A DNA stretch of 30,893 bases from Campylobacterales bacterium (GTDB lineage Archaea > EX4484-52 > GLR71), in NCBI GenBank assembly GCA_048635405.1, contig JAIVYO010000001.1:1-30893 (forward strand), written 5' to 3'. The position numbers and the translations under genes were made by a program. The notes under the pieces were generated by a model. The model made no database searches and was not told the origin of the DNA. It saw nothing but the letters and a program-made list of their open reading frames with translations. Shown here in pieces: positions 3,898 through 7,194 of the stretch (position 1 is the first letter of the stretch; every line of letters begins with the position of its first letter).

Positions 3898-4785
3898 ATG
3901 TTAGATTTTGGTGAAAATTTTGCAAAAGAATTGACTGAATGGGTTACTGGTCTTACAAATTCATTTAATCCTATGGGTATAAGCAGGAAGATTTCTGATT
4001 ATCTTGAAGAAAATCCGGTGCCTGAGACATTTTATGACGCTGAAATACGTTTTTTTTATGATTTTAAAAGTATGGAGCATGAATTTATAATTACTAAATT
4101 TATACCAATGCAGGATATGGATTTAAATATTATTGGTAAATTGCTAGGATTTTCTATATCATCTGACTTTGGAGAAACTCGGAATTTAAATATATCAGAT
4201 GTTAATGATGTTATTCAAGAGAAATTAAATGATCTTGAATCTTTATTTGATTCTGATGGGGTAAGTGAGAAAATTTCTGATTATCTGGAAAAAAATCCTA
4301 TGCCTAAAAATCTTTTTGCTGGCATTTATTATCATCATAATTTAAGTACACTTAAGGGTGGAATTAGTTTAATTAAAGATAAATCAGTGGGTGGAGTGGA
4401 ATCCAATTCTGCCTGTATGTTGGAGAAAAGCAAAGGCATCACACTTCCCGATTTTAAGAAAAGCCTTTATTTTCTTATGGATGAGTATGATCTTACCGCG
4501 ACAATGATTGTTGCTGATGATTTAGATACTTTAGAGTCGCTTTATGTTCGAAGTGTTAAGGGAGAAGACTCTTTTTCTGATTCTTATAGCAGCTCTGACC
4601 TAGGAAAAGTTCTTGATAGGAATTCTTCTTATTTTGATAAAAATTATACAGGTTTCCGTCTGTATGATTCAGGAAAAAATGATATTTTTGTGGTATTCAG
4701 AAAGCTGGAACCTGAAGCTGTTCTTGTAAATACATCTTTGAGAAAATCTCAACTTAGCGCTAAAAAGATCTTATCTTATTTCTAA
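3898..4785 (+). CDS. Hypothetical protein with an internal duplication
   Basis: AT-rich ORF; GISRKISDYLEENPVP and GVSEKISDYLEKNPMP are repeated. Confidence 0.7.
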   Translation: MLDFGENFAKELTEWVTGLTNSFNPMGISRKISDYLEENPVPETFYDAEIRFFYDFKSMEHEFIITKFIPMQDMDLNIIGKLLGFSISSDFGETRNLNISDVNDVIQEKLNDLESLFDSDGVSEKISDYLEKNPMPKNLFAGIYYHHNLSTLKGGISLIKDKSVGGVESNSACMLEKSKGITLPDFKKSLYFLMDEYDLTATMIVADDLDTLESLYVRSVKGEDSFSDSYSSSDLGKVLDRNSSYFDKNYTGFRLYDSGKNDIFVVFRKLEPEAVLVNTSLRKSQLSAKKILSYF

Positions 4786-4787
4786 AT

Positions 4788-5027
4788 TCAGACAGTAATC
4801 AACCCAAACCCGAATGCTATCAAAATTATCGCTATTGCAAAACCGTACAGTGCCTGGGTCTCTGTAAGGACTGCCATTGCAATGGATTTTCCGAAAAGCT
4901 TCTCGTTCTCTGCTGTTGCGCCTATCGCCGCTGCCACTGCTTTCCCCTGGCCTATGCCTGACCCTGCTGCTGCGAAGCCTACTGCTATCCCTGCTCCGAT
5001 TGCTATAAGACCGACCTGTTCAAGCAT
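4788..5027 (-). CDS. atpK: A/V-type ATP synthase subunit K (c), single hairpin, carrying the ion-binding Glu
   Basis: AAAGSGIGQG...VLTETQALYG. ATG at 5027 is preceded by an AGGTGA ribosome-binding site; the ORF track starts at GTG 5036. Confidence 0.92.
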   Translation of the reverse strand: MLEQVGLIAIGAGIAVGFAAAGSGIGQGKAVAAAIGATAENEKLFGKSIAMAVLTETQALYGFAIAIILIAFGFGLITV

Positions 5028-5036
5028 ATTTTTCAC

Positions 5037-5291
5037 CTATATTACTACCAATCCGAACCCGAAGGCGATAAGTATGAAGGCGACTGCAAAGCCGTAAAGT
5101 GCCTGCGTCTGGACAAGGACTGACATCGCAAGCAGCTTTCCGAAAGCGTTCTGCTTTCTTGCTGTCCTCTCAATTGCTTCCCTTGTGGTCTTCCCCTGAC
5201 CGATTCCTGAACCTGCTGATGCGATGCCTACAGCAATCGCGGCTCCGAGCGCTATCATTCCGATGCCTGCAAGCTGAGATTCTGCAATCAC
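5037..5291 (-). CDS. atpK: A/V-type ATP synthase subunit K (c) paralog, single hairpin, with Glu replaced by Gln
   Basis: ASAGSGIGQG...VLVQTQALYG. Confidence 0.9.
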   Translation of the reverse strand: MIAESQLAGIGMIALGAAIAVGIASAGSGIGQGKTTREAIERTARKQNAFGKLLAMSVLVQTQALYGFAVAFILIAFGFGLVVI

Positions 5292-5391
5292 CAGATATCA
5301 CTGGTTAATCTTTTGGTTCTCTTTGTATAAATAGATTTTTTGATTGATCTATACGAAAATACTTTTAACCCATGAGACCCTATATTAGATT

Positions 5392-6456
5392 ATGTCTGTC
5401 AAGAAATCTGTTGTCATTGCTGAAGGCACGCTAAGGATAAGGGCAAAGGATCTTAAGGTCTGCGAGAGGATAAAGAAGTCTTGGGAAATATCATCACGAG
5501 AGTTCCCCGAAGCTATTCATGTGGTGCAGCTCTTTAAGGCGCATGATAATCTTGATTATCTTGTTGACAAGAAAAATCCGGAGTTTCTTAAGGGGCAGCT
5601 GTCTTCTGAAGGCAAGACGCAGGGTGCAAGGATAAATATACTTCCAGATGGGAGGAAGCTGGACAAGGCATTTTCGCTTTTTGCTGAAGGTCTTACAATA
5701 CATGATGAGACGTCAAACAGCCATTGGGATGTTATCTACAAAAATCAGGGAGGCACTTATTCTTATGTATACACTCTTGAGAAGAAGAAGAAGTCTACAC
5801 GAAAGAAATACAGAGAAGTTGAAGAATTTGAGAAGCATTATTCTTTATTGAACAGGCGGGTCCTGTCAGCTCTTAAGGACGAGACAGACATAATTGCTGT
5901 ACCTCTTTATACATTGCTCAAGACCTATATGCGTGTGGGAAATGAGATATATTACAAAGCTCACGGGCACAAGGGGCTTACGACACTGAAGAAGGAAGAT
6001 ATCTCTATTGACGGCAACCAGGTGACATTTAATTATCTTGCAAAAGACGGCGTCCCTATGAAGATTACAGAGAAATTTCCGGAAGTATATATATCCAGAC
6101 TCAAAAAAATGCTCCAGCCGCTACGGGACTCTTCTTTTGTATTTGTCAATGCTATGACAGGTCACCCGCTTACGGATGTGCATTTCAAGGAGGCCTTTAG
6201 GAGATATTGCGGCGAAGAGTTTTATCCGCATATAGTGCGGTCTTTCTATGCGACTGAAAAGGCGAAGGAATTTCTTAAGCAACACAGCTCTGCGACAAAG
6301 AATGAACTTAAGGCATTCTTTCTTTCTGTAGCCGACAAGCTGGGGCATAAGAGGTTTGTGAAGAAAGAGCATGCATGGAAAGATAATTATACTGTGACTG
6401 TAAACCATTATATTCAGCCGGAAATTGTTGAGAGGATCAATTCGCTTGTGAAGTGA
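5392..6456 (+). CDS. Short type IB topoisomerase-fold protein (TopIB/tyrosine recombinase superfamily)
   Basis: TopIB-like motifs MRVGNEIY, GLTTL and FNYLAKDG. Candidate catalytic residues are R181, K218, H280xxR283, H319 (LGH) and Y340. Confidence 0.75.
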   Translation: MSVKKSVVIAEGTLRIRAKDLKVCERIKKSWEISSREFPEAIHVVQLFKAHDNLDYLVDKKNPEFLKGQLSSEGKTQGARINILPDGRKLDKAFSLFAEGLTIHDETSNSHWDVIYKNQGGTYSYVYTLEKKKKSTRKKYREVEEFEKHYSLLNRRVLSALKDETDIIAVPLYTLLKTYMRVGNEIYYKAHGHKGLTTLKKEDISIDGNQVTFNYLAKDGVPMKITEKFPEVYISRLKKMLQPLRDSSFVFVNAMTGHPLTDVHFKEAFRRYCGEEFYPHIVRSFYATEKAKEFLKQHSSATKNELKAFFLSVADKLGHKRFVKKEHAWKDNYTVTVNHYIQPEIVERINSLVK

Positions 6457-6513
6457 TTTTTTTAGGTTGATGCGGCTGAAAAAGATTTAAGATTATGCTG
6501 TGAAGTAATACTT

Positions 6514-7194
6514 ATGAAAGTTGCTGTTGTCGGTAAAGATGTTGATTCTTTTGAGAAGGCTATTATATCACATGGTCTTGAGATAGACAGGAAAAACCCG
6601 GAATTCGTGTTTTCTAACGGCGGTGACGGTGCCATACTTTTTTCTGAGAGGCTTTATCCCGGTGTGCCTAAGGTGACTGTCCGGTGCAGCTCTAAATGCA
6701 ACAGGTGCGAGTTTGATCCTGATGATATTGAAGATGTTGCCGAGAGGCTGAAGAGCGGCAGGTATGAAATTAAAGAGTATATGAAGATTGAGGCAGGCTT
6801 CAACGGCAAGATTGCTGTTGGGCTGAATGAGGTGCAGATACGAAATAAGCTGTTCACCAAGGCTGTGAGGTTCAATGTGTATGTTGATGACAAGATTCTG
6901 TGTAAGAATGTTATCGGCGACGGGGTGGTGATATCCACGCCTTTCGGGTCTACTGCGTATTATACTTCTGTCGGCGGGGAAAAGTTTGATTCCGGCATCG
7001 GTATCGCTCTTAACAACCCGCATGAGAGGGTCAAGCCTGTTATTGTCAGTGAGTCGTCTGCTGTCGAGATTGAGATTCTGCGTGAGGATGCATGCCTTGT
7101 GCATGACAATGATGAGGATGGTAAGGTTCTTCTGAAGAAGGGTGACAGGATTGCTGTCAGGAAGCATGACGGTGTTGCGAAGTTTGTTGTTTGA
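6514..7194 (+). CDS. nadK: NAD(+) kinase
   Basis: GGDG, LNEV and GDGVVISTPFGSTAY motifs. Confidence 0.92.
   Translation: MKVAVVGKDVDSFEKAIISHGLEIDRKNPEFVFSNGGDGAILFSERLYPGVPKVTVRCSSKCNRCEFDPDDIEDVAERLKSGRYEIKEYMKIEAGFNGKIAVGLNEVQIRNKLFTKAVRFNVYVDDKILCKNVIGDGVVISTPFGSTAYYTSVGGEKFDSGIGIALNNPHERVKPVIVSESSAVEIEILREDACLVHDNDEDGKVLLKKGDRIAVRKHDGVAKFVV

What the first reader, a model, noticed from the sequence alone, without database searches (positions are those of the whole stretch)
5392..6456. TopIB-like enzyme with a tyrosine-recombinase HxxR motif and an insertion before the catalytic Tyr
The scaffold motifs are those of short bacterial or poxviral TopIB (RVGNE.Y, GLTTL, F.Y..K.G). TopIB has KxxR at the next motif (vaccinia K220/R223), but this protein has YPHIVRSFYAT, the HxxR of tyrosine recombinases, followed by LGH. 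The His-to-Tyr spacing is 21 residues (H319 to Y340) versus about 9 in vaccinia TopIB and most integrases, and there is an unrecognised ~90-aa N-terminal region. Archaeal TopIB is best known as the long eukaryote-like form, so this may be a distinct clade between topoisomerase, recombinase and telomere resolvase. The activity is unknown.
Basis: partly seen in the sequence, partly recalled or inferred. Interest (0 to 1): 0.7.

Follow-up and report, generated by a model that had tools for sequence, protein, structure and literature searches.

The report
Compact DPANN-type topoisomerase IB gene
This gene encodes a genuine, probably active DNA-untwisting enzyme (type IB topoisomerase) of a compact, little-known family. 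The family is scattered through tiny DPANN archaea and one group of bacteria, and it carries a recombinase-style histidine and a small extra hairpin, but it is not a recombinase.

Summary

It is a type IB topoisomerase by three lines of evidence:
- Pfam PF01028 scores 60.8 bits.
- The AlphaFold model has pLDDT 95.
- Structural Z is 18-22 to human, variola, Deinococcus and Caldiarchaeum TopIB, against at most 13.5 to tyrosine recombinases.

It belongs to a tight, monophyletic family of about 350-aa proteins. In 190 distinct members:
- The catalytic residues are fixed or nearly so: R181, K218 and R283 in all 190, H319 in 189, Y340 in 188.
- The residue before the second Arg is His in 184, Gln in 5, and never Lys. 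Among other TopIBs it is Lys in 71 of 79.
- The His-to-Tyr spacing is 21 in 187 members. It is 9 in 66 of 79 other TopIBs. The extra 12 residues fold as a basic beta-hairpin.

The "hybrid between topoisomerase, recombinase and resolvase" reading is not supported. The gene is accessory:
- It occurs in 5-21% of genomes in three DPANN phyla and is a single-gene indel within its own genus.
- It coexists with Topo IA, Topo VI and a XerA-like recombinase.
- It is under purifying selection (dN/dS about 0.12).

New here: one subclade sits in real bacterial genomes labelled Omnitrophota or Planctomycetota. This scan had already described the same family on two other genomes. The topoisomerase reviews I read do not mention it.

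The parts
5392..6456 (+). Complete gene for a 354-aa compact type IB topoisomerase (stop codon included)
   Evidence: ORF. PF01028 60.8 bits, E 1.6e-16. AlphaFold pLDDT 95.2, pTM 0.86. TopIB structures Z 18-22. dN/dS 0.11-0.13 against same-genus orthologues.
5392..5631 (+). Residues 1-80: family-specific N-terminal module (three short strands, helix 39-50, further strands). Conserved across the family: D59, K67, G68, G78, R80.
   Evidence: Alignments. Folded alone at pLDDT 91.7. No PDB match above Z 3.1 for residues 8-79. No Pfam N-terminal TopIB domain hit in 75 aligned rows.
5632..5775 (+). Residues 81-128: beta-sheet core of the TopIB N-terminal (cap) domain, with the conserved GTYSYVY strand (Y125, Y127)
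   Evidence: The whole model aligns to human TOP1 338-737 from residue 80-82 and to variola TopIB 5-289 from residue 39-40. Alone, residues 83-137 give variola 30-82 (Z 3.4) and Deinococcus 41-84 (Z 3.2) as the top two of 48,161 chains. Matching Y125/Y127 to the pox Y70/Y72 DNA-contact tyrosines is an inference from that register.
5776..6453 (+). Residues 129-354: catalytic domain
   Evidence: Pfam PF01028 covers residues 132-328. Deinococcus TopIB Z 19.3 over residues 137-353. Family profile against PDB: Caldiarchaeum TOP1 E 4.6e-22, Deinococcus TopIB E 4.5e-21.
5932..5934 (+). R181, first catalytic Arg (RVGNE motif)
   Evidence: Aligns with Deinococcus R137. Arg in 190 of 190 family members and 79 of 79 other TopIBs. 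Codon checked.
6043..6045 (+). K218, catalytic Lys (YLAKDG motif)
   Evidence: Aligns with Deinococcus K174. Lys in 190 of 190 and 79 of 79. Codon checked.
6229..6240 (+). H280-I-V-R283: the HxxR motif. R283 is the second catalytic Arg. H280 takes the place of the usual TopIB Lys.
   Evidence: Translates to HIVR. Aligns with Deinococcus K236-D-F-R239 and Caldiarchaeum K-V-F-R. H280 is 184 His / 5 Gln / 1 Gly / 0 Lys in the family. Other TopIBs: 71 Lys, 5 His, 2 Arg.
6346..6348 (+). H319, catalytic His (LGHKR motif)
   Evidence: Aligns with Caldiarchaeum LNHKR. His in 189 of 190. Other TopIBs have Asn in 46 and His in 29.
6349..6384 (+). Residues 320-331 (KRFVKKEHAWKD): basic beta-hairpin inserted between the catalytic His and the Tyr helix, a 'mini-linker' with invariant W329
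   Evidence: Strands 320-323 and 328-331 in the model, with block pLDDT of at least 96. The spacing of 21 against 9 shows a 12-residue insertion. Sequence confirmed. It has the same topological position as the eukaryotic/archaeal linker (spacing 76-103 in four long forms).
6409..6411 (+). Y340, the catalytic (nucleophilic) tyrosine
   Evidence: Tyr in 188 of 190 members, whereas Y333 varies (Y 150, F 18, S 10, P 5 and others). 'HYIQPE' aligns with 'NYIDPR' of Caldiarchaeum TOP1. Tyr in 74 of 79 other TopIBs in the same column.
5292..5391 (.). Upstream intergenic region, shared with the divergently transcribed ATPase c/K-subunit genes (4788-5291, - strand)
   Evidence: Sequence. Its first ~30 nt are conserved in kin genome G030, where the NAD kinase gene follows directly and no TopIB is present.
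6457..6513 (.). Downstream spacer before the NAD kinase gene (6514-7194, +)
   Evidence: No direct or inverted repeats flank the gene.

Best explanation
The gene encodes an active, monomeric type IB DNA topoisomerase (a 'swivelase'). The N-terminal cap domain and the C-terminal catalytic domain clamp duplex DNA. Tyr340 attacks one strand and forms a 3'-phosphotyrosyl link. R181, K218, R283 and H319 stabilise the transition state and protonate the leaving 5'-oxygen. H280 supplies the extra phosphate contact that Lys supplies in other TopIBs. The broken strand rotates, releasing positive or negative supercoils without ATP or Mg, and is then resealed. The basic hairpin 320-331 lies where eukaryotic TOP1 has its linker and probably touches the rotating downstream duplex. 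The gene is an accessory, chromosomal, stand-alone gene. It adds a second way to remove positive supercoils beside Topo VI, and it does not replace Topo IA. What is shown: family membership, fold, conservation of the catalytic residues, distribution and purifying selection. What is inferred: the enzymatic activity, the roles of H280 and the hairpin, and the physiological role.
For: Pfam Topoisom_I scores 60.8 bits against a cut-off of 23.7, and it is the only family reported at E up to 1. The model has pLDDT 95.2 and pTM 0.86. VIA-align gives human TOP1 Z 21.9 (260 aa, 2.9 A), Deinococcus TopIB Z 19.3, variola TopIB Z 18.7 and Caldiarchaeum TOP1 Z 18.0-18.4, with the best recombinase (XerH) at Z 13.5. 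Foldseek gives TopIBs E ~1e-12 and recombinases E >= 7e-5. The catalytic pentad is invariant or nearly so in 190 members and aligns residue for residue with solved TopIBs. dN/dS is 0.11-0.13 against two same-genus orthologues. The gene is intact and single-copy in the genome. Neighbours in 80 related loci are varied housekeeping genes with no conserved partner and no mobile-element genes. No family member turned up in IMG/VR, phage or plasmid collections. Topo IA is present in 39 of 42 genomes of the window's phylum, including TopIB-positive kin, and in 13 of 14 short-TopIB genomes of a second phylum. Topo VI A is present in the own genome. A separate XerA-like recombinase is also present there.
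Against: No biochemical data exist for any member. The usual Lys of the KxxR motif is absent in all 190 members, so catalysis may differ in detail. The first ~80 residues have no known structural counterpart, so an added function such as partner or site recognition cannot be excluded. The patchy distribution (9 of 42, 14 of 301 and 29 of 301 genomes) shows the enzyme is dispensable, so its cellular role is unknown.
Confidence: 0.85

Rival explanations
1. It is a tyrosine-recombinase-like or resolvase-like enzyme. In this reading the TopIB scaffold is re-tooled by the HxxR histidine to exchange strands between two duplexes or to make hairpin ends, acting in integration, dimer resolution or telomere resolution.
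For: The active-site signature reads R-K-H-x-x-R-H-Y, the full tyrosine-recombinase hexad. Of 75 aligned rows, 25 give borderline Phage_integrase hits, best 28.1 bits against a cut-off of 27.1, and NCBI names at least one member 'tyrosine-type recombinase'. The gene is a single-gene presence/absence difference within its genus.
Against: The TopIB profile scores about twice as high in the same proteins. Five of 55 ordinary TopIBs give the same integrase cross-hit. Structure favours TopIB by Z 18-22 against at most 13.5, and TelA appears only at Foldseek E 7e-3. The N-terminal domain core is the TopIB cap. Only 14 residues follow the Tyr, so there is no C-terminal segment for the helix swap that assembles recombinase synapses; this is read from the sequence and from general knowledge of Cre and Xer. 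H280 is Gln in 5 members. No repeats or attachment-like sites flank the gene. Contexts are housekeeping. The genome already has a XerA-like recombinase, E 1e-41.
Confidence: 0.05
2. It is a true TopIB catalytically but serves a specialised job rather than general supercoil relief. Examples would be sequence-specific nicking like poxvirus TopIB, a repair or replication-restart function, or a role tied to episymbiotic life. The family-specific N-terminal module would direct it.
For: It is dispensable and patchy even within one genus. The extra, strongly conserved 80-residue N-terminal module has no structural match. It coexists with a full set of other topoisomerases. A bacterial subclade kept the gene after transfer.
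Against: There is no conserved gene neighbour that would point to a pathway. Nothing in the sequence indicates a site preference. Accessory TopIBs with general relaxing activity are the rule in bacteria (general knowledge of Deinococcus and Pseudomonas TopIB, not tested here).
Confidence: 0.1

Closest known systems
Archaeal/eukaryotic long TOP1 (Caldiarchaeum subterraneum CsTOP1, PDB 6Z01/6Z03; human TOP1, PDB 1A36/1K4T)
   Same: It shares the catalytic fold and the pentad. CsTOP1 is the best family-profile hit in the PDB (E 4.6e-22), and human TOP1 is the best structural match (Z 21.9 over 260 residues). Both have a G/N-H-K-R motif at the catalytic His, and both carry extra sequence between His and Tyr at the same topological spot. 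One quick ML tree places the family next to the long forms.
   Different: It has no Pfam Topoisom_I_N or Topo_C_assoc domains. Instead of a 57-77-residue coiled-coil linker it has a 12-residue hairpin. His replaces the Lys of the AKVFR motif. It is about 170-400 residues shorter. The tree placement is not robust (AU test).
Bacterial short TopIB (Deinococcus radiodurans TopIB, PDB 2F4Q/3M4A; Pfam Top1B_N_bact + Topoisom_I)
   Same: Similar size (346 against 354 aa) and the same two-domain plan. Profile E 4.5e-21. Z 19.3 and 26% identity over the catalytic domain. It is likewise an accessory gene.
   Different: No family member matches Top1B_N_bact (0 of 75 aligned rows, against 35 of 55 other TopIBs). 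Bacterial forms have KxxR, mostly Asn instead of the catalytic His, and a spacing of 9. The family is a separate long-stemmed clade.
Poxvirus TopIB (vaccinia/variola, PDB 1A41, 2H7F, 3IGC)
   Same: A short two-domain TopIB with a catalytic His. The whole-protein structural alignment covers both domains (Z 18.7, model 39-354 against 5-289). There is a pair of conserved tyrosines at the end of the N-terminal domain.
   Different: Only 14-17% identity. Pox enzymes have K220xxR223 and a spacing of 9 (H265 to Y274), and they lack the first ~80-residue module and the hairpin.
Tyrosine recombinases (XerH, XerA, Cre, lambda Int; Pfam Phage_integrase)
   Same: They share the ancestral catalytic fold and the R-K-H-x-x-R-H/W-Y signature, including the HxxR histidine and the LGH motif. 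Some family members give borderline Pfam cross-hits.
   Different: Structural Z is at most 13.5, and only over the catalytic domain. The N-terminal domain is different, and there is no C-terminal exchange segment. The window protein itself gives no PF00589 hit at E up to 1.

Membership tests
Type IB DNA topoisomerase (Pfam PF01028 superfamily) | Match to the Topoisom_I catalytic-core profile above the curated cut-off | tested here: met
   60.8 bits against 23.7. All 75 rows of alignment A2 match.
Type IB DNA topoisomerase (Pfam PF01028 superfamily) | Catalytic pentad Arg-Lys-Arg-His/Asn-Tyr in register with solved enzymes | tested here: met
   R181, K218, R283, H319 and Y340 align with Deinococcus R137/K174/R239 and with the Caldiarchaeum tetrad plus Tyr. 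They are invariant or nearly so in 190 members.
Type IB DNA topoisomerase (Pfam PF01028 superfamily) | Two-domain clamp fold (cap domain plus catalytic domain) | tested here: met
   Model pLDDT 95.2. Z 18-22 to four different TopIB structures, covering both domains for human and variola.
Type IB DNA topoisomerase (Pfam PF01028 superfamily) | Lys three residues before the second catalytic Arg (vaccinia K220, Deinococcus K236); typical of the family rather than strictly defining | tested here: not met
   His280 here. The family has 184 His, 5 Gln, 1 Gly and 0 Lys. Other TopIBs have Lys in 71 of 79.
Type IB DNA topoisomerase (Pfam PF01028 superfamily) | ATP- and Mg-independent relaxation through a 3'-phosphotyrosyl intermediate | not testable with these tools
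   This needs the purified protein.
Bacterial short TopIB subfamily | N-terminal domain matching Pfam Top1B_N_bact (PF21338) | tested here: not met
   0 of 75 aligned rows, against 35 of 55 other TopIBs.
Bacterial short TopIB subfamily | Nine residues from the catalytic Asn/His to the Tyr | tested here: not met
   21 here and in 187 of 190 members. The spacing is 9 in 66 of 79 other TopIBs.
Eukaryote-like long TOP1 | Topoisom_I_N (PF02919) and Topo_C_assoc (PF14370) domains, with a coiled-coil linker | tested here: not met
   Neither domain is found. The same search does find both in long DPANN TopIBs and in P0257.
Tyrosine recombinase / phage integrase (PF00589) | Match to the Phage_integrase profile above the cut-off | tested here: not met
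   The window protein has no hit at E up to 1. Relatives score 25-28 bits against a cut-off of 27.1, always below their TopIB score.
Tyrosine recombinase / phage integrase (PF00589) | R-K-H-x-x-R-H/W-Y active-site signature | tested here: met
   R181, K218, H280, R283, H319 and Y340. Apart from the HxxR His, this signature is shared with TopIBs.
Tyrosine recombinase / phage integrase (PF00589) | Recombinase-type N-terminal core-binding domain and whole-protein fold | tested here: inconclusive
   Recombinases align only over residues ~135-354, at Z up to 13.5. For the N-terminal part, the best though weak matches are TopIB cap domains.
Telomere resolvase (protelomerase: TelA, TelK, ResT) | Overall fold similarity to solved protelomerases | tested here: inconclusive
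   TelA appears only at Foldseek E 7e-3 to 2e-2 and TM 0.29-0.30, far below the TopIBs, and is not among the top 50 by VIA-align.

The most novel reading that the evidence does not exclude
The family would be a third structural class of TopIB, beside the short bacterial/viral forms and the long eukaryote-like forms. It would have arisen in DPANN archaea, possibly by shrinking the archaeal/eukaryotic long TOP1, with the linker reduced to a hairpin and the cap rebuilt. It would use a recombinase-style His in place of the Lys, and it crossed domains once into Omnitrophota-like bacteria. Long eukaryote-like TOP1 genes also occur in other DPANN genomes. Together these would mean TopIB is far from confined to Thaumarchaeota and their relatives, which weakens its use as a marker for rooting the archaeal tree.
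Probability: 0.25. Interest if true: 0.6.

Novelty: new variant of a known kind. Interest (0 to 1): 0.45.

Why it matters
Reviews and a 2025 analysis state that archaeal TopIB is essentially limited to Bathy-, Aig- and Thaumarchaeota, with a few Asgard exceptions, and they use this as a phylogenetic argument (PMC8185306, PMC4824112, PMC12395588). These data disagree. A compact TopIB occurs in at least 177 species-level genomes, mostly DPANN. A full-length eukaryote-like TOP1 occurs in others. So the known distribution of TopIB in archaea is incomplete.

The family is also a natural experiment in active-site chemistry. It has the recombinase His in place of the TopIB Lys, and a 12-residue hairpin where eukaryotes have the linker that governs rotation and camptothecin sensitivity. 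It is small, predicted with very high confidence, and easy to express.

There is a practical point for annotation. NCBIfam has no model for it, most records call it hypothetical, and at least one calls it a tyrosine recombinase.

Tried and rejected
1. TopIB replacing Topo IA in reduced genomes. The own genome shows no Topo IA, but it is only 78% complete. Topo IA is found in 39 of 42 genomes of the phylum, including all TopIB-positive kin of the genus, and in 13 of 14 short-TopIB genomes of a second phylum. The idea is rejected. The one exception is the 742-kb Aenigmatarchaeota-labelled chromosome CP070804 (G043), which has the TopIB and no Topo IA match. I did not follow this up.

2. Mobile-element cargo.
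- No flanking direct or inverted repeats.
- No integrase, transposase or viral genes among the neighbours in 80 loci.
- No relative in IMG/VR by pattern scan.
- No match in the phage collection.
- Only distant alphaproteobacterial TopIBs, 22-25% identical, in the plasmid collection.

3. I found nothing at this locus that bears on it.

4. Expression. No RNA holder was listed for the stretch. DNA holders are cold-seep metagenomes.

5. Deep placement of the family. One quick tree puts it beside the long forms. Holding it together with P0212 and P0245 (spacing 23 and 20) gives a likelihood 4.5 units higher, AU p 0.6. The placement is unresolved.

6. Mutual exclusion of short and long TopIB. No genome among 301 has both (14 short, about 25 long). 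Chance predicts only about 1.2 co-occurrences, so this is not evidence.

7. Names for the nearest non-family relatives. The listing of cluster members returned no taxon.

8. Complex prediction and the ESM Atlas searches were not used, because nothing in the report depends on them.
Full report
**What is there.** The window holds an intact ORF at 5392-6456 (+), 354 aa, starting with ATG. The gene lies between two divergently oriented A/V-type ATPase c/K-subunit genes (4788-5291, - strand) and an NAD kinase gene (6514-7194, +). The genome is a 0.92-Mb, 78%-complete, 144-contig assembly of a small-genome archaeon. It has Topo VI A and no GyrA. Its DNA recurs in cold-seep metagenomes.

**It is a type IB topoisomerase.**
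- *Profile searches.* Pfam reports only Topoisom_I (PF01028, 60.8 bits, residues 132-328) at E up to 1, and NCBIfam reports nothing.
- *Sequence matches to solved structures.* phmmer against the PDB finds Deinococcus radiodurans TopIB (2F4Q), Caldiarchaeum TOP1 (6Z01) and pox TopIBs. A family profile raises these to E 4.6e-22 for Caldiarchaeum and E 4.5e-21 for Deinococcus.
- *Catalytic residues.* Those alignments put R181, K218, R283, H319 and Y340 on the catalytic Arg-Lys-Arg-His-Tyr of the solved enzymes. H280 falls on the Lys of their K-x-x-R.
- *Structure.* An AlphaFold model built on 75 sequences has pLDDT 95.2 and pTM 0.86. Foldseek ranks TopIBs first at E ~1e-12, with tyrosine recombinases from E 7e-5 and TelA at 7e-3. 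VIA-align gives human TOP1 Z 21.9 (260 residues, 2.9 A), Deinococcus 19.3, variola 18.7 and Caldiarchaeum 18.0-18.4. The best recombinase, XerH, scores 13.5 and only over the catalytic domain.

**The family.**
- *Size and spread.* A word-indexed search returned 665 proteins; the best 120 are 50-88% identical and 323-406 aa long. An exhaustive HMMER search of 1.84 billion representatives shows a gap. Full-length family members reach E 2e-48 or better, and the next full-length TopIBs start at E ~1e-11.
- *Conservation.* In 190 distinct members R181, K218 and R283 are invariant, H319 is His in 189 and Y340 is Tyr in 188. H280 is His in 184, Gln in 5, Gly in 1 and never Lys. Y333 varies. The His-to-Tyr spacing is 21 in 187.
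- *Comparison with other TopIBs.* In 79 representatives aligned together, the H280 column is Lys in 71, His in 5 and Arg in 2. The spacing is 9 in 66, 76-103 in four long eukaryote-like forms, and 23 and 20 in P0212 and P0245.
- *The inserted hairpin.* The extra 12 residues fold as a basic beta-hairpin (strands 320-323 and 328-331, with invariant W329). It lies where long TOP1s carry their linker.

**N-terminal region.**
- *No Pfam N-domain.* No family member matches Pfam Top1B_N_bact or Topoisom_I_N, whereas 35 of 55 other TopIBs match the former.
- *Cap core.* In the whole-protein alignments the model aligns with human core subdomain I from residue ~80 and with variola from residue ~40. Folded alone (pLDDT 91.7), residues 83-137 give the variola and Deinococcus N-terminal domains as the two top hits of 48,161 chains, though only at Z 3.4 and 3.2.
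- *Unmatched module.* Residues 8-79 match nothing above Z 3.1.
- *Reading.* The cap core is TopIB-like and is preceded by a conserved, family-specific module of about 80 residues.

**How recombinase-like is it?**
- *For a resemblance.* With His at 280 the protein reads R-K-H-x-x-R-H-Y, the full tyrosine-recombinase signature. Of 75 aligned rows, 25 give borderline Phage_integrase hits, at most 28.1 bits against a cut-off of 27.1. One member is named a tyrosine recombinase at NCBI.
- *Against a recombinase role.* Five of 55 ordinary TopIBs give the same cross-hit. The TopIB score is always about double. Fold and N-terminal domain are TopIB-like, and only 14 residues follow the Tyr. The His is Gln in five members. 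No repeats flank the gene. The genome has its own XerA-like recombinase, E 1e-41.
- *Reading.* I read the His as a variant phosphate ligand, not a change of reaction type.

**Phylogeny.** The family is monophyletic (SH-aLRT 100) on a stem of 1.4-1.6 substitutions per site. It is not nested inside the bacterial or pox-like short forms. A quick ML tree that includes six DPANN long forms places it next to the long forms. Forcing it together with P0212 and P0245 gives a slightly better likelihood (AU p 0.6). Its deep position is therefore unresolved, and long-branch effects are likely.

**Distribution and dynamics.**
- *Taxonomic spread.* A scan of one genome per GTDB species found 177 genomes with a relative. 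The 80 best are labelled Aenigmat-, Woese-, Pace-, Nano-, Iain- and 'Nanohal'-archaeota, plus some bacterial labels.
- *Prevalence.* It is 9 of 42 genomes in the window's phylum, including 3 of 8 in its genus. It is 14 of 301 in the phylum of CP070804 and 29 of 301 in the phylum of a Woesearchaeota-labelled chromosome.
- *Single-gene indel.* In kin genome G030 the ATPase c-subunit genes abut the NAD kinase gene with about 40 bp between them. G026 also lacks the TopIB, though there about 0.7 kb of unmatched sequence separates the two genes. G025 and G027 carry the TopIB at the same place at 86-89% nucleotide identity. This is a clean single-gene gain or loss.
- *Selection.* dN/dS against those two orthologues is 0.11-0.13.
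- *Context.* Neighbours across 80 loci are unrelated housekeeping genes, such as a DEAD-box helicase, seryl-tRNA synthetase, ribosomal protein L15e and PPDK.
- *Mobile elements.* No member was found in viral, phage or plasmid collections.
- *Other topoisomerases.* Topo IA coexists with the gene almost everywhere. The idea that TopIB replaces Topo IA is rejected, and its absence from the window's genome is best explained by incompleteness.

**Not DPANN-only.** Seven loci labelled Omnitrophota, Planctomycetota or Ratteibacteria form one clade (SH-aLRT 99) nested among archaeal sequences. The five genomes I checked, covering five of those seven loci (1.4-2.0 Mb), each have 4-7 sigma-70 genes and no Topo VI A. 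In L066 an ECF sigma factor and its anti-sigma factor lie 4.4 kb from the TopIB on the same 110-kb contig. This looks like one archaea-to-bacteria transfer.

**Relation to what is known.** The papers I could read state that archaeal TopIB is the long eukaryote-like form of Thaumarchaeota and relatives, with few exceptions (PMC4824112, PMC8185306, PMC12395588). None mentions a short DPANN TopIB. The sequences are in public databases, mostly as 'hypothetical protein', and IMG sometimes names them 'DNA topoisomerase IB'. Two earlier follow-ups of this scan (e1-5221766, e1-1117210) reached the same identification on other genomes.

**Verdict.** This is a new, uncharacterised structural variant of a known enzyme family. 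It is of moderate interest for topoisomerase evolution and mechanism, and it is not a new kind of system.

Noticed in passing
L091:1051-2625, L094:1216-2763, L096:1162-2910, L095:1741-3972 (genomes G066, G129, G115, G199): About 25 of 301 sampled genomes (0.4-1.2 Mb) in the phylum of the Aenigmatarchaeota-labelled chromosome CP070804 encode a full eukaryote-like TOP1 with Topoisom_I_N, Topoisom_I and Topo_C_assoc domains. The four proteins scanned are 515-742 aa. The papers I read limit this form to Bathy-, Aig- and Thaumarchaeota and a few Asgard archaea.
   Followed up: partly
L066:5956-7041 with L066:11403-12510; also L021, L024, L035, L038, L041, L049: A monophyletic subclade of the compact TopIB family sits in genuine bacterial genomes labelled Omnitrophota, Planctomycetota or Ratteibacteria. 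An ECF sigma/anti-sigma pair lies on the same contig. This implies an archaea-to-bacteria transfer.
   Followed up: yes
L022 (CP070804.1, 742,425-bp chromosome, genome G043): This apparently closed Aenigmatarchaeota-labelled chromosome carries the compact TopIB but gives no Topo IA (PF01131) match. It is the only one of 14 short-TopIB genomes in its phylum sample without one. If the chromosome is truly complete, it would be an archaeon without any type IA topoisomerase.
   Followed up: no
window 3898-4785: The 295-aa ORF upstream of the ATPase c genes has no Pfam match. It contains an internal repeat of about 36 nt, with four copies at 3984, 4266, 4614 and 4739 and a repeated 'ISDYLE.NP.P' peptide.
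   Followed up: no
window 4788-5291: Two tandem single-hairpin ATPase c/K-subunit genes (82 and 84 aa, 71% identical over 117 nt) abut without a gap on the - strand.
   Followed up: no
G026:C16:59378-60093 (kin genome, between the c-subunit genes and the NAD kinase gene): In G030 the two flanking genes are about 40 bp apart. In G026 about 0.7 kb lies at the spot where the window has the TopIB, and it does not match the window. I did not look at what it holds.
   Followed up: no
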